49,321 nt of DNA from Candidatus Woesearchaeota archaeon (GCA_964360175.1 CAYHUI010000004.1:1-49321), one strand, 5' to 3'; shown: positions 580 to 37,618, counted from the stretch's first letter. Program-made: numbers and translations. The notes: a model not told the origin generated them from the letters alone.

Positions 580-846
580 AATTTTGAAACTTACATTAAA
601 CAAATTAATAAAGAAAAAGAAAGATTCCAAAAAGCAATGGCTTTGTTAAAAAAATAAAAATTTTTAAATGAATTTTTCTAGTGTGTTTTGTCCTAGCCAT
701 AACTATATGGCTGGGCTACATGCCTATTAATAGTACACAAAACCTTTGTGTCATGAAATTCAACCACAACATTAAGTAACTTTATCAAAGAGAAGGTGAA
801 ATATGAAGTGGTGGTGATTATTTTGATTAATAGGCTAAATCTGTCC

Positions 847-978: not shown

Positions 979-2052
979 ATGAAAACCTACAAAGACCTTT
1001 ACCCTTTAATTTATGATTTAAGAAACTTACTTCTTGCTTGGAGAAAAGCAAGAAAACATAAAACTGAAAAAGATTATGTTATTGAATTTGAGAAAAATTT
1101 AGAAATTAATTTAATTAAACTACATAAAGAACTAAAAAATTTAAATTATAAACCTAATAAATTAAAAACTTTTATTTTGCGAGACCCAAAAACACGCAAA
1201 ATAAGCAAATCTGACTTTAGAGACAGGGTTGTGCACCACGCTTTATACAATGTAATTGAGCTGATTTTTGATAAAACTTTTATTTATGACTCTTGTGCAA
1301 ACAGAAAAGGAAAAGGTAATTTGTTTGCATTAAAAAGATTTTATTTTTTTATGAGAAAAATTTCAAGAAATGGTTCAGTTTTAGCTAATGATTTTAAAAA
1401 TAGTAATTTTGTTAAAGGCTATTGTTTAAAAGCAGATATAAAACACTATTTTCAAGAAGTTAATCATGAGATTTTAATAAAAATTATCAAAAGAAAAATC
1501 AATGATGAGAAGCTTATATGGTTAATTAAAAAGATACTTAAAAATAATGTTTTAGGAAATGAAAAAGGCAAAGGTATGCCTTTAGGAAATTTGACTTCAC
1601 AATTCTTTGCTAATGTTTATTTAAATGAATTAGATTATTTTATAAAACATAAATTAAAAGCAAAATATTATGTAAGATATGTTGATGATTTTGTTTTGCT
1701 TCATAATTCAAAACAAAAACTTGAATTTTGGAAAGAACAGATTGATAATTTTTTAAAGAAAGAATTGAAAATTGAACTACATCAAGAAAAGTCAAGAATA
1801 ATTCCTCTTTTAAGAGGTGTTGATTTTGTAGGTTTTAAAAATTTTTATTACTTCAAGTTGCTGAGAAAAAGAAATATAAAGAAGATTTTGCTAAAGATAG
1901 AGCAGTATAAAAATAGAGATATGACTTATACTAAACTAACTGAAAGTTTTCAAGGCTGGCAAGCTTATGCTAAATGGGCTAATACTTATGAATTAAGAAA
2001 AAATATTTATAAAAGAATAATTTTACTTAATGATTTTTCCAAGCTTATCTAA
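979..2052 (+). CDS. DGR-type reverse transcriptase
   Basis: 357 aa with FRDRVVHHAL, PLGNLTSQFFANVYLNELD and YVRYVDDFVLL (YxDD) motifs. The N-terminal AWRKARKHKTEKDYVIEFE is typical of DGR RTs. It lies directly downstream of the TR. Confidence 0.9.
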   Translation: MKTYKDLYPLIYDLRNLLLAWRKARKHKTEKDYVIEFEKNLEINLIKLHKELKNLNYKPNKLKTFILRDPKTRKISKSDFRDRVVHHALYNVIELIFDKTFIYDSCANRKGKGNLFALKRFYFFMRKISRNGSVLANDFKNSNFVKGYCLKADIKHYFQEVNHEILIKIIKRKINDEKLIWLIKKILKNNVLGNEKGKGMPLGNLTSQFFANVYLNELDYFIKHKLKAKYYVRYVDDFVLLHNSKQKLEFWKEQIDNFLKKELKIELHQEKSRIIPLLRGVDFVGFKNFYYFKLLRKRNIKKILLKIEQYKNRDMTYTKLTESFQGWQAYAKWANTYELRKNIYKRIILLNDFSKLI

Positions 2053-3507
2053 TTTCTCTCCTTCTAAGAATTTATTTAGAGTTTCAGGCAAATCTTTAAT
2101 TTTAACTCTAATTTGCTTCATTGTATCTCTATCTCTTAAAGTACAGTCATTTTTATTTAAACTTTCAAAATCTACTGTTAGCATAGCTTTAATCCCTATT
2201 TCATCAGCTCTTCTGTACATTTTACCAATAGAACCTTTGCTATCATAAAAAATTCTAAATTTATTTTTTAAAACATTATAAACTTCTTTTGTTTTTTTAA
2301 CAATTTTTTCTTCATTAGAAACCAAAGGGAATATTGCTATATCAAAAGGAGCTATGTTGGCAGGAAATTTAAATAAACTTCTTTCTTTATCTTCATCATA
2401 AAATATATCTAGTAATGAATATATATTTCTATCAACACCAAAACTCAACTCCAAAACATTTAATAAAATTTTTTTGTTGTCAATGCTAACTTCTAAATTT
2501 TCTCCGGATCCTTTCTGATGAACTTCTAGATCATAAAAACCTCTATGATGTAAACCAGCTACTTCTTTAAAACCATTTAAAGTTTCTAAATAAAGTTCAA
2601 CATCAAAATGTATTTTTGTATAAAAAGATCTTTCTTCTTTGGATAGTTCTCTGAATCTAAACTTATCTTCTTGTATTTTTAATGTATCTAAATAAAATTG
2701 TTGAATTTTTGCTAAGTGGTATAAATAAATTTTAGGCAATTTTAATTTTTTATAAGCATCTTCTACTTTAATCTCATTTAATTTTTTATTTAGATATAAT
2801 CTTAATTTATAATTTTTAACTTCGCTGAAATCAAAATCATCTTCTGGATTAAAGAAAATCTGAAGTTCTGCTTGTGTAAATTCCCTCAATCTAAAAAATC
2901 CTTTTCTTGGAGAAATTTCATTCCTAAAAGCTTTTCCTATCATAGCTAATCCCATAGGAATTTTTTCTCTTAAAGCTGAAAATTCTCTTTTAAAAGATAA
3001 ATAAGGATTTTGTGCGCTTTCAGGAGTTAAATAAGCTATATCTTCTCCAAAAACACCTAATTTTAATTCAAACATCATATTAAACCATTTTACTTTATCT
3101 AAATCAGAATTACACTTTGGACATTTTAGTTTTTTATCTTTAATTATTTTATCTAATTCTTTTTCATTTAAACCTTCTGCATTGATTTTAAGTTCGTCTT
3201 CGATTAATTCATCTGCCCTAAATCTAAAATGACATTTTTTACATTCGGTTAGAGGATCTTTGAACTTATCTAAATGACCAGAACTTTCAAAAACTTTTTT
3301 AGGTAAAATTGCATTCCCAGAAATTTCAAAATAATTTTCATTTAATCCTAAAAAATAGCACTTCCATAGATTTTCAAATTTATTTTTCATTAAACTACCT
3401 AAATGTCCATAAGTCCAAAATCCAGCAGGCCCGTTGTATATTTCAGCTGTTGGAAAGAAAAATCCTCTTTTTGTAGCTATGTTTAATATTTTTTCAGCTT
3501 TATCCAT
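2023..3507 (-). CDS. glyS: Glycyl-tRNA synthetase (archaeal/eukaryotic dimeric type)
   Basis: N-terminal KRGFFFPTAEIYNGPAGFWTYGHLG and FRNEISPRKGFFRLREFTQAE class II motifs. The 3' end overlaps the RT ORF convergently by 30 nt. Confidence 0.9.
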   Translation of the reverse strand: MDKAEKILNIATKRGFFFPTAEIYNGPAGFWTYGHLGSLMKNKFENLWKCYFLGLNENYFEISGNAILPKKVFESSGHLDKFKDPLTECKKCHFRFRADELIEDELKINAEGLNEKELDKIIKDKKLKCPKCNSDLDKVKWFNMMFELKLGVFGEDIAYLTPESAQNPYLSFKREFSALREKIPMGLAMIGKAFRNEISPRKGFFRLREFTQAELQIFFNPEDDFDFSEVKNYKLRLYLNKKLNEIKVEDAYKKLKLPKIYLYHLAKIQQFYLDTLKIQEDKFRFRELSKEERSFYTKIHFDVELYLETLNGFKEVAGLHHRGFYDLEVHQKGSGENLEVSIDNKKILLNVLELSFGVDRNIYSLLDIFYDEDKERSLFKFPANIAPFDIAIFPLVSNEEKIVKKTKEVYNVLKNKFRIFYDSKGSIGKMYRRADEIGIKAMLTVDFESLNKNDCTLRDRDTMKQIRVKIKDLPETLNKFLEGEKLDKLGKIIK

Positions 3508-27898: not shown

Positions 27899-28312
27899 TT
27901 AAAATAATTCTTCTAAAGAATCTACTATCTGTTTTTTTATTTGATTTATATTAAAATTTTTTCCAGGACAATTTTTTTCCAAACTTTCTAAATCTTTATG
28001 TCTTATAATATCATCTATATTGATATCAAATTCTTTTTTTAAATTTTTAAGTAAATATATTAAACTATTAAGTTGAGCTTTTGTAGGTTTATCAATATTA
28101 AGGTTACCTATTAAACAAATTCCAATAGAATTATTAGCACTATTAATCTTTATGTTTCTAACTTTTTCTATAAAACCATCTTCTTTTAAATTTCCATTAT
28201 CAATAATAAAATTATAAATGTTATCTAACTCATTATTATGCAGTTTAATATTTTTAGAATTACCTTTACTTTTTCCAGAGTGGTGTATTATTATCTTATT
28301 CATTTTTTTCAT
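27899..28312 (-). CDS. N-acetylmuramoyl-L-alanine amidase (amidase_2 / PGRP fold)
   Basis: IIIHHSG ... IRHKD ... CPGKNF: zinc ligands His, His and Cys at the spacing of the amidase_2 family. Confidence 0.7.
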   Translation of the reverse strand: MKKMNKIIIHHSGKSKGNSKNIKLHNNELDNIYNFIIDNGNLKEDGFIEKVRNIKINSANNSIGICLIGNLNIDKPTKAQLNSLIYLLKNLKKEFDINIDDIIRHKDLESLEKNCPGKNFNINQIKKQIVDSLEELF

Positions 28313-28445: not shown

Positions 28446-28517
28446 AGGGTGTAGAGGGACTCGAACCCTCATTCATCGCTCTGCAGGCGATTGCCTTGCC
28501 AATTTGGCTATACACCC
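28446..28517 (-). tRNA. tRNA-Cys (GCA)
   Basis: Hand fold: acceptor GGGTGTA/TACACCC, anticodon stem ATCGC/GCGAT, loop CTGCAGA, T arm GAGGG-TTCGAGT-CCCTC, discriminator U73. Confidence 0.85.
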
Positions 28518-28560
28518 ATATTTAAATCTTTTTTGATTAAACTTTTTTTAAAAGTTTCTA

Positions 28561-28635
28561 TGGACCCGATGGGATTTGAACCCACGACCTACTGCTTAGA
28601 AGGCAGTCGCTCTATCCGGGCTAAGCTACAGGTCC
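28561..28635 (-). tRNA. tRNA-Arg (UCU)
   Basis: Hand fold: acceptor GGACCTG/CGGGTCC, D stem GCTT/GAGC, anticodon stem ACTGC/GCAGT, loop CTTCTAA, T arm GTGGG-TTCAAAT-CCCAT. Confidence 0.85.
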
Positions 28636-28732: not shown

Positions 28733-31732
28733 ATGGCAGATTTTAAAAAAATAGAAAAGAAGTGGCAAACTGCTTGGGAAAAATCTAAAATTTTTAAAGT
28801 AAAAGAAGGTAAAAAGGAAAAATATTATATTTTAGAGATGCTTCCTTATCCTTCTGGTTCTGGTTTGCATATGGGTCATGCTAGAAATTATTGCATTGGA
28901 GATGTATTGGCTAGATATAAAAGAATGCAGGGTTTTAATGTTTTATATCCGATGGGTTATGATAGTTTTGGATTGCCAGCTGAAAATGCAGCAATAAAAG
29001 AGAAATCCCATCCTAAAATCTTTACAGAAAATGCAATTAAGAATTTTATAAGACAGCAAAAAAATTTAGGTTTAAGTTATGATTGGGACAGGATATTAGC
29101 TACACATTTACCTGAATATTATAAATGGAATCAATGGTTATTTTTAGAGTTTTTAAAAAGAGGTTTAGTCTATAAGAAAAAAGCTGCTGTAAATTATTGC
29201 AAAAAATGTGATACCGTTTTAGCAAATGAGCAAGTTGTAAATGGTAGATGTTGGAGACATGAAGATCAAGAAGTAGAAATTAAAGAATTAGAACAATGGT
29301 TTTTTAAAATAACTGATTATGCTGAACAGCTTTTAAAAGATTTAGACAGATTATATTGGCCTGAAGATATTAAAATAATGCAGAGAAACTGGATCGGAAA
29401 AAGTGAAGGTACAGAGATTGAATTTGAAATTATAAATTTAGATATTAAAGATGCAGAATTTGTTTTCTTTCACGGATTTAATAGTAATTCTAGAAGCGAT
29501 TTTTGGCCGTGGTTGAAAAAAGAGATTGAAGATCATGGTGGAAAAGTAGTTTTTACTCCAGATTTACCTAATACCTTTGAACCTAATATCGAAAAACAAT
29601 TAGAATTCGTTCTAAAAAATCATAAATTTAATTCAAATACTATAATTATTACTCATTCATTAGGCGGGGTGCTTGCAATGAAATTACTACCTAAACTTAA
29701 TGTAAAAATTAACAAATTAATTATGATAACCCCTCCATTAAAACCTGAATATTTAGATAATAAAAGAAGACCTATATTAGAAGAGTGTTGTGATTTCAAA
29801 TTTGATTTTTCTGCAATTAAGAGAAAAGTGAATAAAATTATAATTTTAGCTGATAAAAATGATCATATCTTACCAATTAATCAACCACGTGAAATAGCAA
29901 AAAATTTATCAGCAGATATTTATATTGGAAATGGAGTTAAATCTCATTTTAATAATTTAATTGAACCAGATGTATTAAATATCTTATTTCAAAAAGCTAA
30001 AGTATTTACAACAAGACCAGATACTTTATTTGGAGTTACTTTCATGGTATTTGCACCAGAGCATCCTAAAGTTTTAGAACTTGTAAAAGAAACACAATAT
30101 GAAAAACAAGTTAAAGATTTTATAAAAAAGGTTTTAATACAAGATAGATTTACAAGAACTTCTGCAGAAAAAGAAAAAGAAGGAATGTTTATAGGAAAAT
30201 ATGCAATCAATCCTATTAATAATGAAAAAATTCCTATATATATTGCTAATTTTGTTGTAATGGATTATGGAACTGGTTTTGTAATGAGTGTTCCAGCTCA
30301 TGATCAAAGAGATTTTGAATTTGCAAAGAAATATAATTTACCTATTAAACAAGTTATTTTATCAGAAAATAAAAAAGAAGTTAAAGATCAAGCTTATTTA
30401 GATAATGGAATTTTAATTAATTCAGGAAAATTTAATGGATTAGATAATATAAAAGCAATTAAAGAAATTACAAAATTCTTAGATCAAAAAAATTTAGGCA
30501 AATTTGTAATACAATATAAATTAAAAGATTGGTTAATTTCTAGACAAAGATATTGGGGAACACCAATTCCTGTTATATATTGTGATAAATGTGGTATTAT
30601 ACAAGTTCCAGAAAAAAAATTACCAATTTTATTACCAGAAAAAGTTAAGTTTGATGTTAAAGGTAATCCATTAGAGAATGTTAAAGAATTTGTAAATGTA
30701 AAATGTTATAAATGTAAATCTAATGCAAGACGTGAAACAGATACAATGGATACTTTTGTTGATTCTTCATGGTATTTTTTAAGATACTGTGATAATAAAA
30801 ATAATAAAAATATATTTAACAGTAAAAAAGTAAATTATTGGATGCCTATTGATCAATATATTGGAGGAAAAGAACATGCAACTGGACATTTAATTTATTT
30901 TAGATTTTTGACTAAGGTTTTAAAAGATATGAATTTAGTAAATTTTGATGAACCAGCTTTAAGATTGTTTAATCAAGGTATGCTACATAAAAATGGTTAT
31001 GTTATGAGTAAAAGTAGAGGTAATGTTGTATCACCAGAAGAAATTTCTGAAAAATATGGTATTGATACAGGTAGATTATTTTTGTTATTCGTTGCAAGCC
31101 CAGATAAAGATATGGAATGGAATGATGAAGGTATAGAAGGAGCTTATCGTTTTATAAACAAAATTTATAATTTGTTTGATAAAAAAACTGTTAAGCATAA
31201 TGAAAGATTAGAAAGTAAAAGAAACAAAATTGTTAAAGAAGTTACTGAAAATATTGAAAGTTTCAGATATAATATATCTATAGTAAAATTAATGGAGTAT
31301 GTTAATTACTTAAATACAAAGGGAGCTTCAAAAGAATGTTTAGAAGTTTTATTAAAATTATTAGCACCATTTACCCCGCATTTAGCAGAAGAATTTTGGC
31401 ACAAAAATCACAGAAGTTTTATTTCATTGGAAAAGTGGCCTTCTTTTGATGTTAAGAAAATTAAAAACGAGTTTGAATTTGAAGATAAGTTAATCGAACA
31501 AACAATTCAAGATATTAGATCTATTTTAAATATTGTTAAAATCAAACCAAAAAAAGGTTATATATATTGCATTCCAAAAGAAAAGAAAATATTTGAAGAC
31601 AACAAAAATTTATTTGAAATAGAATTAAATTTAAAAATTAATATATTTGCAGTTAATGATAAAAATATTTATGATCCTCAAAGTAAAGCAAAAAAAGCTA
31701 AATTAGGTAAAGCTGGTATTTATATAGAATAA
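28733..31732 (+). CDS. leuS: Leucyl-tRNA synthetase, bacterial type, with inserted alpha/beta serine hydrolase domain (aa ~240-422)
   Basis: HIGH (LHMGHARNY), NWIGKSEG, editing-domain TTRPDT and GTGFVMSVPAHDQRDFEFA, KMSKS (VMSKSRGN). The insert FVFFHGFNSNSRSDFW...ITHSLGG...ILADKNDHILP...VKSHFN lies between NWIGKSEGTEIEFEI and KVFTTRPDT. Confidence 0.9.
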   Translation: MADFKKIEKKWQTAWEKSKIFKVKEGKKEKYYILEMLPYPSGSGLHMGHARNYCIGDVLARYKRMQGFNVLYPMGYDSFGLPAENAAIKEKSHPKIFTENAIKNFIRQQKNLGLSYDWDRILATHLPEYYKWNQWLFLEFLKRGLVYKKKAAVNYCKKCDTVLANEQVVNGRCWRHEDQEVEIKELEQWFFKITDYAEQLLKDLDRLYWPEDIKIMQRNWIGKSEGTEIEFEIINLDIKDAEFVFFHGFNSNSRSDFWPWLKKEIEDHGGKVVFTPDLPNTFEPNIEKQLEFVLKNHKFNSNTIIITHSLGGVLAMKLLPKLNVKINKLIMITPPLKPEYLDNKRRPILEECCDFKFDFSAIKRKVNKIIILADKNDHILPINQPREIAKNLSADIYIGNGVKSHFNNLIEPDVLNILFQKAKVFTTRPDTLFGVTFMVFAPEHPKVLELVKETQYEKQVKDFIKKVLIQDRFTRTSAEKEKEGMFIGKYAINPINNEKIPIYIANFVVMDYGTGFVMSVPAHDQRDFEFAKKYNLPIKQVILSENKKEVKDQAYLDNGILINSGKFNGLDNIKAIKEITKFLDQKNLGKFVIQYKLKDWLISRQRYWGTPIPVIYCDKCGIIQVPEKKLPILLPEKVKFDVKGNPLENVKEFVNVKCYKCKSNARRETDTMDTFVDSSWYFLRYCDNKNNKNIFNSKKVNYWMPIDQYIGGKEHATGHLIYFRFLTKVLKDMNLVNFDEPALRLFNQGMLHKNGYVMSKSRGNVVSPEEISEKYGIDTGRLFLLFVASPDKDMEWNDEGIEGAYRFINKIYNLFDKKTVKHNERLESKRNKIVKEVTENIESFRYNISIVKLMEYVNYLNTKGASKECLEVLLKLLAPFTPHLAEEFWHKNHRSFISLEKWPSFDVKKIKNEFEFEDKLIEQTIQDIRSILNIVKIKPKKGYIYCIPKEKKIFEDNKNLFEIELNLKINIFAVNDKNIYDPQSKAKKAKLGKAGIYIE

Positions 31733-33858: not shown

Positions 33859-35126
33859 AAATAAAAATTTTGACAATACTTTTAATTTGTATTTTAATTT
33901 TACCGGTAGCTTTTGCTAAAATTGGTGTTTTTGCACCAGAATCATACCCACAACCAACAACTTTTAACATAGGTCAAGATCAATCTTATTCTGTAATTTT
34001 TGATGGAGAAGGAGAGGCTACAGTAGCAGCTAAATTAGTTATAAATAATATACAAGAAACTTCATTAAAAGAATTAAAATTAGAAATTCCAGGTAATGAT
34101 ATAAGAATTATAGCTATAGTACAAGAATATTATTATCTTAAAAAAACATGTTCTAGATATGGAGAGATATGTGTAGACGAATCATGTAGATACGATTATA
34201 ATAAGTGTATAGAATATACAGAATATCCATATGGCAATCCTTTATATTATTTAATAGATTATACAAAAGAAGAATTATCTAAATCAACAATCTATACTTT
34301 AGAATTACCTCAAAAAGTAAAATCGCAACAATCAGCAAATGTAATTTTATATTATAAAACAGAAGGTTATACAACAAAAAATCTGGGTAAGTTTAATTTT
34401 GATTTTGAAACTATTAAAAATGAATATGATACAAACAGCGTTAGAGTTTCTATTAGCGTAAATGAAGATTTATATTTAAAAGGTGTAAAATCTCAAATAG
34501 ATTACAGAAGTAATTTTCTAGCAGCAGAAGGATCATTTAATAAATTAAGTGGAACTGAAGAAAGTGCTGATTTACAAAGATTTTCAAGTCAAATCGGTTA
34601 TTATGGTGGTATAACTAAAACTGCTCAAGGTTTAGATCCATGGGAAAGTTTTCATGTAAAAGGAACTTATGCTAAATCTAAATTTGCTTTATACGCAGTA
34701 AATACATTTTTAATAATATTAGGAATAATATTTGTTCTTTGGTTATTTTATTTCTTTGTAGTAAGGAGGTTAATAAGAATGAAAACTAAAAATAGAACAT
34801 TAAAAGTAATTGGAGGTGGAGTTGGTGGTGCTGTTGGCGTAATTATTTTATGGTTCATTGCTTGGTTTTTAATTAGAATTCTTGGTAAATATAATAGCAT
34901 GATCCTTTTACCTATAATACTTTTATTTGGTATATTAATATTTATAATGTTTTTAGGACCATCAGTTTATATAGGTATTAAAGAAGGTGTTGGAGCTGGA
35001 ATTTGGACTTTAGTTATTACTGCAATAAGTTTGTTAATCTTATCAATTATAATAATTGTATTATTAGGTATTTTAAATTCCCCACAAATAATGCCTATGA
35101 TGGGAGTAGCAGAAACTTTTGATTAA
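33855..35126 (+). CDS. Membrane protein with large extracellular N-terminal domain
   Basis: Signal/TM at the N-terminus and several C-terminal TM helices. Overlaps the upstream regulator gene (ATGA). Confidence 0.55.
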   Translation: MKIKILTILLICILILPVAFAKIGVFAPESYPQPTTFNIGQDQSYSVIFDGEGEATVAAKLVINNIQETSLKELKLEIPGNDIRIIAIVQEYYYLKKTCSRYGEICVDESCRYDYNKCIEYTEYPYGNPLYYLIDYTKEELSKSTIYTLELPQKVKSQQSANVILYYKTEGYTTKNLGKFNFDFETIKNEYDTNSVRVSISVNEDLYLKGVKSQIDYRSNFLAAEGSFNKLSGTEESADLQRFSSQIGYYGGITKTAQGLDPWESFHVKGTYAKSKFALYAVNTFLIILGIIFVLWLFYFFVVRRLIRMKTKNRTLKVIGGGVGGAVGVIILWFIAWFLIRILGKYNSMILLPIILLFGILIFIMFLGPSVYIGIKEGVGAGIWTLVITAISLLILSIIIIVLLGILNSPQIMPMMGVAETFD

Positions 35127-37618
35127 ATTTTTTCTTTTAATTCTTTTAAAAACCTAGAAATAGTTTTAGTAATATTTTCTGGTTGGGTTTTTAATATATT
35201 TGCAGTTTCTTGTAAAATATCCCACTTAAAAATTTTTTTAGAATTTAGTTTAAAACTATGAATAGATTTTCCCTTTTTAACAACATCTTTCCACAAATTA
35301 AATAATTCTTCAGCTCTTCCAGGAATTTGATTAATATCACAATTTAATAGATCAGAAGCTTCTTTTAAAATTTCTTGTTCATAATTTAATTCTTCTTCAT
35401 ATTTTTTACCTGCAACATATTCTAATCTTACAATAGCATCTGAAATTTTAGTTGATTTTAATATTTTTATTTTTCCAACTTCGGATGTATTATCTAAATG
35501 AGTGCCCCCACAAGCTTCAACATCTGTATTTTTTATGTTAACAATTCTAATATTTTTTCCAGGAACTACACCACCCTGATAAATTAAAGTTCCATATTTC
35601 TTTTCAGCTTCATCTCTAGACATAAAACTTTTTTCTACTTTAATTTTTTTAGCTACAATTTTATTAGCTTCATCTTCTATTTTTTTAATTTCATCTTCAC
35701 TTAAACTTTGATAATGTGTTATATCTAATCTAGCTTTATTTACATCTTTAAACGCACTTGCTTGATTTACATGATTTCCTAAAACTTTTCTAGCAGCAGC
35801 ATTAATAATATGTGTTGTTGTATGATGTTGCATTAGTTGATATCTTCTATCCCAATTAATTTTTCCTTTTACTATTGAATTTTCTTTAAATTTAGGTTTG
35901 TCTTTTAGAACATGAACAATAATATTTCCTTGTTTAAAAACATCTGCAATTTCATTATCATTTAAATAACCGATATCATATAATTGACCACCAGAAGTTG
36001 GATAAAAACAAGTTTTATCTAATATAACGTTGTTGTCAATGATTTTAAGAACTTTTGCTGAAAAATCTTTTTGTTTTTCATTTTTATAAAAAAGTAATTC
36101 TGTCTCTTTAATATTTTTTAAATTTAATTTCTCTTGTTTTTCTGTAGCATATTTTTGTTCAACTTTTTCATGTAATTGAGCTACTTTAGCATAAAAGTTT
36201 TCAGGTATTTTAATATCACGATTAAATTTAATAGCTTCTTCTCTTATTATTTCCGGTGAAATTCCATGGCTATCATATAATTGAAGTAATTTATTTTCAT
36301 TAATATCTTCTTTAATTAATCTAGCTACAATCTCTACAGATTTTTGTTTTGTATTATCGTATTTAATTTTCTCAACATCTAAAATCTTTTTAACATTGTC
36401 TAAATTTTTACTTAATTCTGGAAATAAAGGTTTGAGATAAGAAGCATGCCAACTGCAAATTTCTGCTAAATCTAAATTCCAATTGTATTGATCAATGAAA
36501 CTTAAAGCTCTTCTTAAAATAACTCTTAAATTATAACCACTAGCTGTGTTGCTAGGCAAAGCACTATCATTTAATGCTACCAATAAAGATCTGCTATGTT
36601 CTGCTATCGAATAAAGAGCAGCTAATGGCAAAATTTTATTTTTTAATTCAGTTAAATTAATATTAATCTTTTTAGAAATTTCAGTCCAAGTTTTATCTAC
36701 ATCTTTTATTTCATCTATATTTAAATAAGAAGAATAAGGTAAAAATCTTTTCATCAAATCATTATCAATTTTAATTCCAGTTTTATTATATAGTTTATTC
36801 ATAACAGTTGGAAAAGTTGCATCATAACTTGTTTGATTTCCTTGAGTAAACCAAGCAGCTCTTTCTTGCCCTTGACCCATATCCAAAACTTTAATATTTA
36901 ATTCTTTAATGCTGTTATTTATTAGTTCATATTGCATATAAACCTGATTGCTAATTTCTAAACCTTGTGAAAAAAACTCTAATGAACTTCCTAAATTACC
37001 TCCTCCAAGCCAAGCATCTTCATGTATTTTTAAATATTCATTTTTAATTCCCATTCCTTTATTTAGCCAAGTTAAATGGTCTTTTAGATATTTATTAATA
37101 TTGTAATCTTTTGGTTTTACAAATGCATGTTCCCCCATCATAACAAATCCAGTAAAATGCGAAGAACTTAATCCAACATTATCTATATCTGAAAATCTTA
37201 AACAAAACTGAGGTATAACCAAGGGGTTTGCAGGAGGTTTAACTTCTCCACTTACAATATAAGGCTGAAAAGCTGCTATCGAAGCTATTGTAAAATCTGT
37301 TGTTGGATTCCACCTGCTAACTACGGGGTATCTCTTAATAGGTGTATAACCTAAATTTTTATGAATTCTAGAAAATTCCTTCCAGACATCAATATAGCTT
37401 AATTTTTTCTTTGAACCTTTGCCTATAAATCTAAAACCACCTGAACAAGAAGGCTCTCCACAAATTTTATCCTTATTTAAACTCCAGAAAAAATTTTTAC
37501 ATTTATTACATTGATTTCTGGTAAAATTTAATTCTTTTAAAGTTTTGACTGGATAATATTTTTCTGAATTTTTCTGTAACTCCTTTTTAAAATTTAATTT
37601 AATCTCTTTTTCATTCAT
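35123..37618 (-). CDS. alaS: Alanyl-tRNA synthetase (archaeal type)
   Basis: 831 aa with a class II catalytic core and editing domain motifs HHTTTHIINAA and ACGGTH. Confidence 0.9.
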   Translation of the reverse strand: MNEKEIKLNFKKELQKNSEKYYPVKTLKELNFTRNQCNKCKNFFWSLNKDKICGEPSCSGGFRFIGKGSKKKLSYIDVWKEFSRIHKNLGYTPIKRYPVVSRWNPTTDFTIASIAAFQPYIVSGEVKPPANPLVIPQFCLRFSDIDNVGLSSSHFTGFVMMGEHAFVKPKDYNINKYLKDHLTWLNKGMGIKNEYLKIHEDAWLGGGNLGSSLEFFSQGLEISNQVYMQYELINNSIKELNIKVLDMGQGQERAAWFTQGNQTSYDATFPTVMNKLYNKTGIKIDNDLMKRFLPYSSYLNIDEIKDVDKTWTEISKKININLTELKNKILPLAALYSIAEHSRSLLVALNDSALPSNTASGYNLRVILRRALSFIDQYNWNLDLAEICSWHASYLKPLFPELSKNLDNVKKILDVEKIKYDNTKQKSVEIVARLIKEDINENKLLQLYDSHGISPEIIREEAIKFNRDIKIPENFYAKVAQLHEKVEQKYATEKQEKLNLKNIKETELLFYKNEKQKDFSAKVLKIIDNNVILDKTCFYPTSGGQLYDIGYLNDNEIADVFKQGNIIVHVLKDKPKFKENSIVKGKINWDRRYQLMQHHTTTHIINAAARKVLGNHVNQASAFKDVNKARLDITHYQSLSEDEIKKIEDEANKIVAKKIKVEKSFMSRDEAEKKYGTLIYQGGVVPGKNIRIVNIKNTDVEACGGTHLDNTSEVGKIKILKSTKISDAIVRLEYVAGKKYEEELNYEQEILKEASDLLNCDINQIPGRAEELFNLWKDVVKKGKSIHSFKLNSKKIFKWDILQETANILKTQPENITKTISRFLKELKEKI

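What the first reader, a model, noticed from the sequence alone, without database searches (positions are those of the whole stretch)
29450..29998. Serine hydrolase (alpha/beta fold) domain inserted inside leucyl-tRNA synthetase at the entrance of the CP1 editing domain
The LeuRS is otherwise a complete bacterial-type enzyme, with HIGH, NWIGKSEG, TTRPDT, GTGFVMSVPAHDQRD and KMSKS motifs.

Between NWIGKSEGTEIEFEI and KVFTTRPDT, E. coli-type enzymes have only a ~10-residue loop. This protein carries ~183 extra residues there.

The insert looks like a YdeN/RBBP9-type serine hydrolase:
- FVFFHGFNSNSRSDFW (oxyanion/N-terminal strand);
- ITHSLGG (nucleophile elbow);
- ILADKNDHILP (Asp);
- VKSHFN (His).

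The triad appears intact and the reading frame is continuous.

A hydrolase grafted next to the site that hydrolyses mischarged tRNA suggests two possibilities. It could be an additional or altered proofreading or deacylase activity, or a moonlighting esterase. I do not recall such an architecture being described.
Basis: partly seen in the sequence, partly recalled or inferred. Interest (0 to 1): 0.8.

Follow-up and report, generated by a model that had tools for sequence, protein, structure and literature searches.

The report
Serine hydrolase nested inside leucyl-tRNA synthetase
An archaeal leucyl-tRNA synthetase carries a complete, apparently active YdeN/RBBP9-type serine hydrolase built into its proofreading domain, and close relatives of that hydrolase sit inside or right next to LeuRS genes in many other uncultured archaea, which points to an undescribed helper activity for this translation enzyme.

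Summary
ORF 28733-31732 is a 999-aa bacterial-type LeuRS in an archaeal (DPANN-like) contig. About 185 residues (aa 235-419) are inserted in the first beta-hairpin of the CP1 editing domain. The insert is a YdeN/RBBP9-family (PF06821) alpha/beta serine hydrolase with triad S309/D377/H405, by both sequence and predicted structure.

It is not an assembly artefact. 53 of the 120 nearest LeuRS relatives carry the same insert, and the triad is conserved in all of them.

The hydrolase is linked to LeuRS in several independent ways:
- It is nested at three different LeuRS sites.
- 8 of 10 informative free-standing relatives lie in leuS operons, with both bacterial-type and archaeal-type LeuRS. One operon also holds a YbaK-like deacylase and Ham1.
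- A more distant branch is fused to a tRNA-binding domain.

The canonical CP1 editing residues stay intact, so the hydrolase is an optional add-on and not a replacement. RBBP9 hydrolyses single hydrophobic aminoacyl groups that have a free alpha-amine. My best reading is therefore an accessory aminoacyl-ester or aminoacyl-adenylate hydrolase working with LeuRS. That function is inferred and untested. I found no published description.

The parts
28733..31732 (+). leuS: bacterial-type leucyl-tRNA synthetase, 999 aa, single continuous frame
   Evidence: ORF list. TIGR00396 leuS_bact scores 938 bits against a cutoff of 548. T. thermophilus LeuRS 1h3n matches at E=2e-226.
28733..29434 (+). N-terminal half of the catalytic (Rossmann) domain with HMGH (aa 46-49) and ZN-1-type CxxC...CxxH region, running to the first CP1 strand (NWIGKSEGTEIEFEI, aa 219-233)
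   Evidence: Aligns to Tth LeuRS residues 9-240. Motif positions. AF2 places a strand at aa 223-234.
29435..29989 (+). Nested YdeN/RBBP9-type (PF06821) alpha/beta serine hydrolase domain, aa 235-419
   Evidence: PF06821 scores 32.4 bits against a cutoff of 22. YdeN 1uxo matches at E=2.7e-13. AF2 pLDDT is 94.1. Foldseek top hits are 1uxo and RBBP9. In the full-length model the domain spans aa 242-418 at pLDDT 86-96 with very short linkers.
29471..29476 (+). Oxyanion-hole His247-Gly248 (FVFFHGF)
   Evidence: His is kept in 53/53 nested copies and 70/76 free copies. Coordinates.
29657..29659 (+). Catalytic nucleophile Ser309 (ITHSLGG elbow)
   Evidence: Ser is kept in 53/53 nested copies and 73/76 free copies. 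It aligns with RBBP9 Ser75. Coordinates.
29861..29863 (+). Catalytic acid Asp377 (ADKNDHILP)
   Evidence: The column holds Asp in 48 and Glu in 5 of 53 nested copies, and Asp in 72/76 free copies. It aligns with RBBP9 Asp138.
29945..29947 (+). Catalytic His405 (VKSHFN)
   Evidence: His is kept in 53/53 nested copies and 71/76 free copies. It aligns with RBBP9 His165.
29990..30580 (+). Remainder of the CP1 editing domain, with the T-rich motif TTRPDT (aa 426-431, nt 30008-30025) and AHDQRD (aa 522-527, nt 30296-30313) intact
   Evidence: PF13603 matches aa 421-583 to profile positions 22-184. T426/T427/R428/D430/T431/H523/D524/R526/D527 are invariant in carriers and non-carriers.
30581..31732 (+). 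Zinc hairpin (CDKCG aa 617-621, CYKC aa 658-661), second half of the catalytic domain with VMSKS (aa 757-761), anticodon-binding domain and C-terminal domain. No leucine-specific domain.
   Evidence: Alignment to Tth LeuRS shows Tth residues ~577-622 have no counterpart. Pfam Anticodon_1 matches aa 826-941. Motif positions.

Best explanation
The insert is a catalytically competent YdeN/RBBP9-family serine hydrolase that works together with LeuRS as an optional accessory activity.

**Shown**
- It is a complete alpha/beta hydrolase domain with an intact Ser-Asp-His triad.
- It is spliced into the turn of the first beta-hairpin of CP1. Only 1-2 residues separate its last helix from the strand that leads, about 6 residues later, into the T-rich TTRPDT editing motif.
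- The canonical LeuRS synthetic and editing motifs are intact.
- The hydrolase lineage is associated with LeuRS repeatedly and independently, as nested domains at three sites and as operon partners of both bacterial-type and archaeal-type leuS.

**Inferred**
- Like RBBP9, it forms an acyl-enzyme with a single hydrophobic aminoacyl group bearing a free alpha-amine.
- Its substrate is an aminoacyl ester or anhydride generated at LeuRS. The most likely candidates are a mis-acylated or surplus aminoacyl-tRNA(Leu) 3' end, or a released non-cognate aminoacyl-adenylate.
- It would then act as a second, mechanistically different (covalent serine) proofreading or house-cleaning step beside the CP1 pocket. 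It would work in cis when nested and in trans when encoded next to leuS.
For: **Identity**
- PF06821 scores above its gathering cutoff.
- YdeN matches at E=2.7e-13.
- The model has pLDDT 94, and its best folds are YdeN and RBBP9 at TM ~0.8.

**Activity is retained**
- Ser 53/53, His 53/53, Asp/Glu 53/53 and oxyanion His 53/53 are kept, while mean insert identity is only 43%.

**The link to LeuRS is not chance**
- 55 of the 150 best cluster representatives are nested in bacterial-type LeuRS. 42 are at the CP1 hairpin, 11 after the CxxCG zinc hairpin and 2 in the CP1 variable loop.
- In 17 of 17 species-representative genomes found with a hydrolase-only query, the domain is nested in LeuRS (14) or directly upstream of leuS (3, one of them archaeal-type).
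- Context look-ups of free-standing relatives place P0122, P0133, P0145, P0153 and P0163 in leuS operons.
- Together, 8 of 10 informative free-standing cases are leuS-linked.

**tRNA and editing theme**
- The L004 operon is hydrolase, hydrolase, YbaK-type tRNA_edit, Ham1, archaeal LeuRS.
- A conserved hydrolase+tRNA_bind fusion family exists.
- The module is also nested in ValRS and AlaRS, both editing synthetases, and in TsaD.

**Chemistry**
- RBBP9 S75Dap traps Leu/Ile, Met, Phe, Tyr and Trp. [quoted passage not shown]

**Mounting**
- The linkers are short and confident in the full-length model, which has pLDDT 88 and pTM 0.75.
Against: - No activity has been measured.
- No coordinates were available, so I could not check the distance or orientation of Ser309 relative to the CP1 pocket or the tRNA CCA path.
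- CP1 editing residues are fully intact, and no CP1 position distinguishes carriers from non-carriers. There is therefore no sign of a need for extra editing.
- The module is dispensable. Closely related LeuRS lack it and have no hydrolase neighbour.
- The same hydrolase is also nested in UvrA, SecA, an EngA-like GTPase and TsaD, and fused to glyoxalase, peptidase S51 and riboflavin kinase. Nesting by itself therefore does not prove a substrate link.
- Its frequent companions NUDIX and Ham1 are generic house-cleaning enzymes, and they cluster with it even away from leuS (L030).
- RBBP9's demonstrated activity is that of an aminopeptidase, not a tRNA deacylase.
Confidence: 0.45

Rival explanations
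1. House-cleaning passenger. The CP1 hairpin, the CP1 variable loop and the zinc hairpin are insertion-tolerant surface loops. In small DPANN genomes, compact stand-alone enzymes (YdeN-like hydrolase, NUDIX, Ham1, GNAT) become embedded in, or placed beside, a constitutively expressed essential gene. The hydrolase would do a general metabolite-repair or esterase job. It would share expression and stoichiometry with LeuRS but no substrate.
For: - The same LeuRS sites carry alternative passengers: NUDIX, Ham1, GNAT and even an IS200-type Y1 transposase domain.
- The hydrolase is also nested in UvrA, SecA, an EngA-like GTPase and TsaD.
- A Ham1-NUDIX-hydrolase cluster exists without leuS (L030).
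- CP1 is unchanged in carriers.
- The module is optional.
- Insert and host identities do not co-vary (Mantel r=0.001).
Against: - The bias toward LeuRS is extreme: 55 of 150 representatives, against single cases for every other host.
- The operon linkage involves two non-orthologous LeuRS types and both gene orders. Loop tolerance cannot explain that.
- The YbaK-type deacylase in the operon and the tRNA_bind fusion point to tRNA.
Confidence: 0.22
2. Amino-acid supply. The domain is an RBBP9-like aminopeptidase or esterase that frees leucine (or other hydrophobic amino acids) from scavenged peptides or esters. It would feed LeuRS in an amino-acid-auxotrophic symbiont.
For: - The only demonstrated activity in the family is removal of N-terminal hydrophobic residues, and Leu/Ile adducts were trapped (PMC8866121).
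- One relative is fused to peptidase S51.
- Co-expression with LeuRS.
Against: - Free leucine diffuses, so rigid mounting on CP1 brings no obvious gain.
- This does not explain the companions YbaK, tRNA_bind, NUDIX and Ham1.
- There is no similar linkage to aaRS for other hydrophobic amino acids, apart from single ValRS and AlaRS cases.
Confidence: 0.12
3. Inhibitor detoxification. The hydrolase, and in relatives the GNAT, NUDIX and Ham1 modules, destroy natural leucyl-adenylate-mimicking antibiotics that target LeuRS. This would be analogous to microcin C immunity by MccF (serine peptidase) and MccE (GNAT). That analogy comes from my own knowledge and was not tested here.
For: - It explains in one scheme the co-occurrence with LeuRS of an aminoacyl-bond hydrolase, an acetyltransferase and two nucleotide hydrolases.
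- It fits the optional, patchy distribution expected of a resistance trait.
- NCBIfam already recognises an IleRS with an embedded GNAT (NF040702, listed).
Against: - No such inhibitor is known for these organisms.
- Embedding the enzyme in the target gives no clear kinetic advantage.
- The YbaK and tRNA_bind partners are not explained.
- The scheme is entirely inferential.
Confidence: 0.1
4. Selfish or mobile insertion (intein-like or transposon-borne) or an assembly chimera. The insert would not be a functional part of the protein.
For: - The host list (aaRS, UvrA, SecA, GTPase) resembles typical intein hosts.
- One relative has an in-frame IS200-type transposase domain at the same site.
- A 15/18 imperfect inverted repeat brackets the insert in this window.
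Against: - There is no Hint or intein domain, nor any other family hit, in the insert.
- The triad is conserved over deep divergence.
- The boundary repeat is absent in 13 other carriers, all with shuffle fractions of at least 0.17.
- GC content is the same as in the flanks.
- The architecture recurs in dozens of independent assemblies.
- The insertion is in a variable loop, not in a conserved motif.
Confidence: 0.03

Closest known systems
YdeN (B. subtilis, PDB 1UXO) / RBBP9 (PDB 2QS9, 7OEX) family, Pfam PF06821 Ser_hydrolase
   Same: - Same minimal ~180-aa alpha/beta hydrolase fold without a lid (TM ~0.8).
- Same Ser-Asp-His triad positions and HG oxyanion motif.
- The Pfam score is above the gathering cutoff.
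   Different: - Known members are free-standing proteins. Here the domain is nested inside another enzyme's editing domain, or encoded in leuS operons.
- Sequence identity is only 18-24%.
- The residue after the catalytic Asp that lines the RBBP9 aromatic cage (Phe140) is Ile, Val or Leu here (DHILP versus DPFLP). This may fit aliphatic side chains, but that is inference only.
LeuRS CP1 post-transfer editing domain (Pfam PF13603)
   Same: - It is a hydrolytic module inserted into the class Ia Rossmann fold that removes aminoacyl groups from tRNA(Leu).
- The new domain sits within it, a few residues from its T-rich motif.
   Different: - The fold is unrelated.
- By established knowledge, CP1 uses no covalent serine nucleophile.
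- CP1 is universal in LeuRS, whereas the hydrolase is optional.
Free-standing trans-editing deacylases (YbaK/ProXp PF04073, AlaXp, DTD)
   Same: - They are small hydrolases that act with an aaRS. Members of this hydrolase lineage are likewise encoded as separate genes beside leuS, once in the same operon as a YbaK-type protein.
   Different: - The fold and catalytic mechanism differ.
- To my knowledge no trans-editing factor dedicated to LeuRS is known.
- Deacylase activity of the hydrolase is unproven.
IleRS with embedded N-acetyltransferase domain (NCBIfam NF040702 ileS_w_GNAT)
   Same: - It is a precedent for a class Ia aaRS carrying an extra enzymatic domain, recognised as an 'exception' model (listed).
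- A GNAT is also found nested in a LeuRS relative, P0215.
   Different: - The passenger fold and the host synthetase are different.
- Our protein scores only 103 bits against a cutoff of 1999.
Inteins in essential genes
   Same: - They are in-frame nested elements in conserved housekeeping proteins, including aaRS, UvrA and SecA-type hosts.
   Different: - The insert has no Hint domain.
- It lies in a variable surface loop.
- It has a conserved enzymatic triad.
- It has no boundary signature.
- It is presumably retained in the mature protein.

Membership tests
PF06821 Ser_hydrolase (YdeN/RBBP9) | Profile HMM score above Pfam gathering threshold | tested here: met
   The insert alone scores 32.4 bits and the whole protein 28.5 bits, against a cutoff of 22.
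PF06821 Ser_hydrolase (YdeN/RBBP9) | Compact lid-less alpha/beta hydrolase fold of ~180 aa | tested here: met
   The AF2 model has pLDDT 94.1 and pTM 0.90. Foldseek gives 1uxo at TM 0.80/0.83 and RBBP9 at TM ~0.78/0.82. The next folds have E>=2.5e-7 and TMt ~0.5.
PF06821 Ser_hydrolase (YdeN/RBBP9) | Ser-Asp-His catalytic triad (RBBP9 S75/D138/H165) and GxSxG-type elbow | tested here: met
   S309 (HSLGG), D377 and H405 align to RBBP9 S75, D138 and H165. They are conserved in 53/53 nested copies, with Asp replaced by Glu in 5.
PF06821 Ser_hydrolase (YdeN/RBBP9) | Hydrolysis of aminoacyl-X with a free alpha-amine (RBBP9 activity) | not testable with these tools
   The activity is known only for RBBP9 (PMC8866121). 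The alpha-amine anchor (RBBP9 Glu108) could not be mapped reliably from the pairwise alignment.
Bacterial-type LeuRS (TIGR00396) | Equivalog HMM above the curated cutoff, class I HIGH and KMSKS signatures | tested here: met
   938 bits against a cutoff of 548. HMGH is at aa 46-49 and VMSKS at aa 757-761.
Bacterial-type LeuRS (TIGR00396) | CP1 editing domain with T-rich motif and conserved Asp of AHDxRD | tested here: met
   PF13603 scores 222 bits. TTRPDT and AHDQRD are invariant in the alignment of 48 relatives and across carrier and non-carrier classes.
Bacterial-type LeuRS (TIGR00396) | Leucine-specific insertion domain (present in T. thermophilus and E. coli enzymes) | tested here: not met
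   Tth residues ~577-622 have no counterpart in the query. The domain is not universal in bacterial LeuRS, so this does not affect membership.
Known aaRS editing / trans-editing domains (CP1, YbaK/INS PF04073, tRNA_SAD/AlaX, DTD) | The insert itself belongs to one of these folds | tested here: not met
   The insert hits only alpha/beta hydrolase families in Pfam and NCBIfam. Structural neighbours are all alpha/beta hydrolases.
Inteins / Hint-domain elements | Hint splicing domain and conserved junction residues | tested here: not met
   There is no Hint or intein hit. The junctions vary among carriers, and there is no recurrent boundary repeat.

The most novel reading that the evidence does not exclude
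A sixth, mechanistically new class of aminoacyl-tRNA synthetase proofreading module. It would be a covalent-catalysis alpha/beta serine hydrolase dedicated to LeuRS, deployed either nested in CP1 (cis) or as an operon-encoded partner (trans, the first trans-editing factor for LeuRS). It would be part of a wider DPANN/CPR toolkit in which LeuRS serves as a scaffold for hydrolytic quality-control domains (YdeN-like, NUDIX, Ham1, YbaK-like).
Probability: 0.3. Interest if true: 0.85.

Novelty: new variant of a known kind. Interest (0 to 1): 0.72.

Why it matters
**Why the architecture is unusual**
- Editing by aaRS is carried out by a small, well-catalogued set of domain folds. LeuRS is thought to rely only on CP1.
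- Here a catalytically intact serine hydrolase, from a family whose one characterised member cleaves single hydrophobic aminoacyl groups, is repeatedly welded into or encoded beside LeuRS in a large group of uncultured archaea.

**If it acts on aminoacyl-tRNA or aminoacyl-adenylate**
- It would be a new proofreading fold and mechanism.
- It would be the first LeuRS-specific trans factor.
- It could reveal a fidelity problem peculiar to these reduced symbionts.

**If it does not**
- The data still show that LeuRS in these lineages is a hub for nested house-cleaning enzymes (hydrolase, NUDIX, Ham1, GNAT). This is a striking example of domain-in-domain evolution in essential genes.

**Practical value**
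- It gives a testable function for the poorly understood YdeN/RBBP9 family.
- It flags many database entries annotated simply as 'leucine--tRNA ligase' or 'alpha/beta fold hydrolase'.

Tried and rejected
1. **Word-index search with the insert alone** found nothing. This is a sensitivity limit of the index, because the full-length search and the exhaustive HMMER search found hundreds of relatives.
A tighter 7-sequence alignment worked, but it reaches only close relatives.
3. **Mobile-element footprint.** Repeats at the insert borders in the window include a 15/18 inverted repeat, reached by 6/1000 shuffles but also by 5% of other window pairs in leuS. It is absent in 13 other carriers, so I rejected it as chance. 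GC content does not differ from the flanks.
4. **Compensation for a degenerate CP1** is rejected. The editing residues are invariant, and no CP1 column separates carriers from non-carriers.
5. **Single ancient insertion with strict vertical descent** is not supported. The state changes about 13 times on a crude NJ tree, and insert identity does not correlate with host identity. Star-like, saturated core distances may contribute, so this stays unexplained and is not proof of exchange.
6. **Assembly chimera** is rejected because the architecture recurs.
7. **Literature.** Seven searches found no description of a LeuRS-hydrolase architecture (plus 42 for RBBP9). One query was malformed.
8. **Geometry of Ser309 relative to the CP1 pocket** could not be measured, because the model tools return no coordinates.


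Full report
**1. The observation**

The window contains one uninterrupted ORF, 28733-31732 (+), of 999 aa. NCBIfam calls it a bacterial-type leucine-tRNA ligase: TIGR00396 scores 938 bits against a cutoff of 548.

- HMGH at aa 46-49.
- NWIGKSEG at aa 219-226.
- TTRPDT at aa 426-431.
- GTGFVMSVPAHDQRD at aa 513-527.
- VMSKS at aa 757-761.

In a residue-by-residue alignment to T. thermophilus LeuRS (PDB 1h3n), query residues 238-421 have no partner. They lie between Tth residues 240 and 243, in the turn of the hairpin '...EILFPVEGKE / VR / IPVFTTRPDT'. Insert-free relatives have only an 8-10 residue turn there, for example 'IDFTIEGTDKKITVFTTRPDT'. The observation and its coordinates are correct. 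I set the insert at aa 235-419, nt 29435-29989.

**2. What the insert is**

- The insert alone scores 32.4 bits on Pfam PF06821 (Ser_hydrolase), whose gathering cutoff is 22. Weaker hits go to other alpha/beta hydrolase families.
- Against PDB sequences the best hit is B. subtilis YdeN (1uxo, E=2.7e-13), followed by human RBBP9.
- An AlphaFold2 model of the insert, built with 16 nested homologues, is very confident: pLDDT 94.1 and pTM 0.90.
- The model's closest solved folds are YdeN (TM 0.80/0.83) and RBBP9 (TM ~0.78/0.82). They are well separated from the next alpha/beta hydrolases.
These align with RBBP9 Ser75/Asp138/His165 (coordinates).

**3. The host organism and the rest of the protein**

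The window is archaeal. It encodes an archaeal-type AlaRS (TIGR03683), Orc1/Cdc6, archaeal ribosomal protein L10/P0, Dph2, FtsZ and a dimeric GlyRS. GC content is about 25-30%. The nearest LeuRS relatives are labelled Woese-, Pace- or Nanoarchaeota by their depositors. This fits a DPANN archaeon using a bacterial-type LeuRS. I did not verify the depositors' taxon labels.

The canonical CP1 editing residues (T426, T427, R428, D430, T431, H523, D524, R526, D527) are invariant in an alignment of 48 relatives. They are invariant in 53 carriers, 15 short non-carriers and 52 long non-carriers alike, and no CP1 column separates carriers from non-carriers. The hydrolase is therefore an addition and not a substitute for a decayed editing site.

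In the full-length AlphaFold model (pLDDT 88.1, pTM 0.75) the order of elements is:
- CP1 strand at aa 223-234.
- A 7-residue linker.
- The hydrolase at aa 242-418, with pLDDT 86-96.
- After 1-2 residues, the CP1 strand at aa 420-426, which runs straight into TTRPDT.

The domain is thus tightly mounted and not tethered. From established LeuRS structures (my own knowledge: E. coli T247/T248/T252 of this motif line the editing pocket), the C-terminal anchor of the hydrolase is only about six residues from the pocket-forming T-rich segment. I could not measure real distances, because no coordinates are returned.

**4. It is not an artefact and not rare**

- A full-length search found an identical protein on an independent ENA contig, plus thousands of relatives.
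- Among the 120 best relatives, 53 carry a 153-186 aa insert at exactly this position. The other 67 lack the site-A insert.
- In the 53 nested copies, Ser is kept in 53/53, His in 53/53, the acid is Asp in 48 and Glu in 5, and the oxyanion His is kept in 53/53. Mean pairwise identity of the insert is only 43%, against 62% for the LeuRS core. The catalytic machinery is therefore under purifying selection.

**5. The hydrolase lineage follows LeuRS**

An exhaustive HMMER search with the insert alone against 1.84 billion cluster representatives gave 1024 hits at E<=1e-3 and 199 at E<=1e-10. I classified the best 150.

| Class | Count |
|---|---|
| Nested in bacterial-type LeuRS | 55 |
| Free-standing (<=230 aa) | 81 |
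| Nested in a ValRS (P0177) | 1 |
| Other | 13 |

The 55 LeuRS-nested copies occupy three different positions:

| Site | Position | Count |
|---|---|---|
| A | CP1 hairpin or N-side | 42 |
| C | Just after the CxxCG of the zinc hairpin that follows CP1 (about window aa 620) | 11 |
| B | CP1 variable loop (about window aa 549) | 2 |

The other hosts and partners are:
- Nested in an AlaRS, between the tRNA-recognition and editing parts.
- Nested in UvrA, SecA, an EngA-like GTPase and TsaD/Kae1.
- Fused end-to-end to NUDIX, glyoxalase, peptidase S51, riboflavin kinase and a tRNA_bind domain.

A scan of one genome per GTDB species, using a hydrolase-only alignment with no LeuRS residues, returned 17 loci:
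- In 14 the match is nested in a bacterial-type LeuRS. Thirteen are at site A and L026 is at site C.
- The other three are free-standing genes lying directly upstream of leuS. Two precede an insert-free bacterial-type LeuRS (L014, L024). One precedes a 957-aa archaeal-type LeuRS (L017).

Context look-ups of free-standing metagenomic relatives gave the following:

| Protein | Identity to insert | Context |
|---|---|---|
| P0122 | 49% | Stop codon abuts the ATG of an archaeal-type leuS |
| P0133 | 37% | Tight operon: hydrolase, hydrolase, YbaK-type tRNA_edit, Ham1, archaeal-type LeuRS |
| P0145 | 36% | 6 nt upstream of a bacterial-type leuS |
| P0153 | 32% | 2 nt upstream of a bacterial-type leuS |
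| P0163 | 31% | 2 nt downstream of a bacterial-type leuS, next to Sua5 and near Ham1 |
| P0125 | 38% | No leuS nearby |
| P0184 | 32% | No leuS nearby |
| P0143 | 33% | Uninformative |

Altogether 8 of 10 informative free-standing cases are leuS-linked. They involve two non-orthologous LeuRS types and both gene orders. Loop tolerance or chance cannot explain that.

Conversely, two insert-free LeuRS genes that I checked (P0048, P0053) have no hydrolase neighbour. They sit beside the ribosomal-protein/RNA-polymerase cluster. The module is therefore optional.

**6. Companions**

- The same LeuRS hot spots carry other small enzymes in relatives. NUDIX is nested in LeuRS in at least six of the 17 genome loci. 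Ham1, a GNAT and an in-frame IS200-type Y1 transposase domain each appear once.
- The Ham1 nested in the bacterial-type LeuRS P0220 is 54.5% identical to the free Ham1 gene upstream of the archaeal-type leuS in L004. At least two different modules therefore alternate between nested and operon forms around LeuRS.
- A Ham1-NUDIX-hydrolase-NUDIX/hydrolase cluster also exists without leuS (L030).
- The hydrolase+tRNA_bind fusion is a small conserved family of six clusters at 39-49% identity over their full length.

**7. Mechanism**

The only biochemically characterised relative is RBBP9. When its Ser75 is replaced by Dap, it traps single Leu/Ile, Met, Phe, Tyr or Trp residues. [quoted passage not shown] An aminoacyl-tRNA 3' end and an aminoacyl-adenylate are exactly such free-amine aminoacyl esters or anhydrides. 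Leu, Ile and Met are the cognate and classic non-cognate substrates of LeuRS (established knowledge).

I combine that chemistry with four results: the LeuRS-specific linkage, the YbaK and tRNA_bind partners, the rigid mounting beside the T-rich motif, and the invariant triad. My best explanation (confidence 0.45) is an accessory covalent-serine aminoacyl hydrolase that proofreads or clears LeuRS products, in cis when nested and in trans when adjacent.
- Shown: identity, integrity, position, distribution and linkage.
- Inferred: substrate and physiological role.

The rivals are:
- House-cleaning passenger sharing only expression with LeuRS (0.22).
- Leucine supply by aminopeptidase action (0.12).
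- Detoxification of leucyl-adenylate-mimic inhibitors, which would also rationalise GNAT, NUDIX and Ham1 (0.10).
- Selfish element or artefact (0.03).

**8. Things that do not fit neatly**

- Insert identity does not track host-core identity (Mantel r=0.001).
- Core identity is 0.614 within insert clusters and 0.635 between them.
- The carrier state changes about 13 times on a crude NJ tree. LeuRS with adjacent free hydrolases nest among carriers.
- This may reflect repeated gain, loss or exchange of the module, or simply saturated, star-like core distances. It needs proper phylogenetics.
- No DNA-level signature of mobility exists. The one boundary inverted repeat in the window is absent from 13 other carriers.

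**9. Novelty**

- Seven full-text searches found no description of a LeuRS with a nested or adjacent YdeN/RBBP9-type hydrolase, or of the NUDIX or Ham1 variants.
- Public annotations call these proteins 'leucine--tRNA ligase', 'class I tRNA ligase family protein' or 'alpha/beta fold hydrolase'.
- Extra enzymatic domains in class Ia synthetases have a precedent in NCBIfam NF040702, an IleRS with GNAT. Both component families are known.
- I therefore rate this as a new variant of a known kind. It has a realistic chance (about 0.3) of being a genuinely new class of aaRS proofreading module.

Noticed in passing
window 692-843 (+) and 979-2052 (+): An Rfam RT-16 RNA (107 bits, gathering cutoff 50) lies immediately upstream of a 357-aa ORF with a reverse-transcriptase domain (RVT_1). 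This is an RT plus ncRNA element in a DPANN-type archaeal contig.
   Followed up: partly
window 27899-28312 (-): A 137-aa N-acetylmuramoyl-L-alanine amidase (Amidase_2, PF01510) is encoded just upstream of the tRNA pair and leuS. A peptidoglycan amidase in an archaeon is unexpected and may relate to a bacterial host or prey.
   Followed up: no
window 2023-3507 (-), 35123-37618 (-), 28446-28635 (-): The window holds two further aaRS genes, a dimeric GlyRS and an archaeal-type AlaRS. Neither carries an inserted domain. tRNA-Cys(GCA) and tRNA-Arg(TCT) lie directly upstream of leuS on the opposite strand.
   Followed up: partly
P0003, P0016, P0027, P0042, P0047, P0051, P0061, P0076; loci L012, L013, L015, L016, L018, L023: Many LeuRS relatives carry a NUDIX domain nested in the CP1 variable loop (reference position ~363-379, about window aa 549), in addition to the hydrolase at the hairpin. 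This gives enzymes of 1100-1210 aa.
   Followed up: partly
P0135 (aa 269-374), P0215 (aa 306-388), P0220 (aa 255-326): The same CP1 hairpin site holds other in-frame passengers in single relatives: an IS200-type Y1 transposase domain, a GNAT acetyltransferase and a Ham1 (ITPase-like) domain. Each of these proteins also carries a YdeN-like hydrolase elsewhere in the LeuRS.
   Followed up: partly
L004 5001-9882 (GCA_020049755.1, JAHZTO010004402.1): A tight five-gene operon reads hydrolase, hydrolase, YbaK-type tRNA_edit, Ham1, archaeal-type LeuRS, with overlapping or abutting start and stop codons. Its Ham1 is 54.5% identical to the Ham1 nested in the bacterial-type LeuRS P0220.
   Followed up: partly
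P0177, P0199, P0224, P0138, P0147, P0179: The same hydrolase module is nested in a ValRS, an AlaRS (just before its editing domain), a UvrA, an EngA-like double GTPase, a SecA and a TsaD/Kae1. Domain-in-domain insertion into large housekeeping proteins appears to be a recurrent habit of this module.
   Followed up: partly
P0264, P0271-P0275; loci L027-L029: A conserved family of about 300-aa proteins fuses a YdeN-like hydrolase to a Trbp111/MetRS-C-type tRNA-binding domain (PF01588). One is annotated 'methionine--tRNA ligase beta chain' in a Planctomycetota MAG.
   Followed up: partly
P0030-P0119 (~879-aa LeuRS clade), reference P0048 position 764: A 57-61 aa extra segment near the C-terminal domain defines a large clade of insert-free LeuRS. 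A few hydrolase carriers (P0005, P0047, P0051, P0054, P0076) have it as well.
   Followed up: no
L019, L025, L026, P0080: Some carriers are labelled Gammaproteobacteria, Saccharibacteria or Patescibacteria by their depositors. Either the architecture extends to CPR bacteria or these bins are mislabelled. I did not check.
   Followed up: no
window 29423-29440 and 29976-29993: An imperfect inverted repeat (15/18) brackets the insert. It is marginally unusual by shuffling (6/1000) but absent in 13 other carriers, so I judged it chance.
   Followed up: yes
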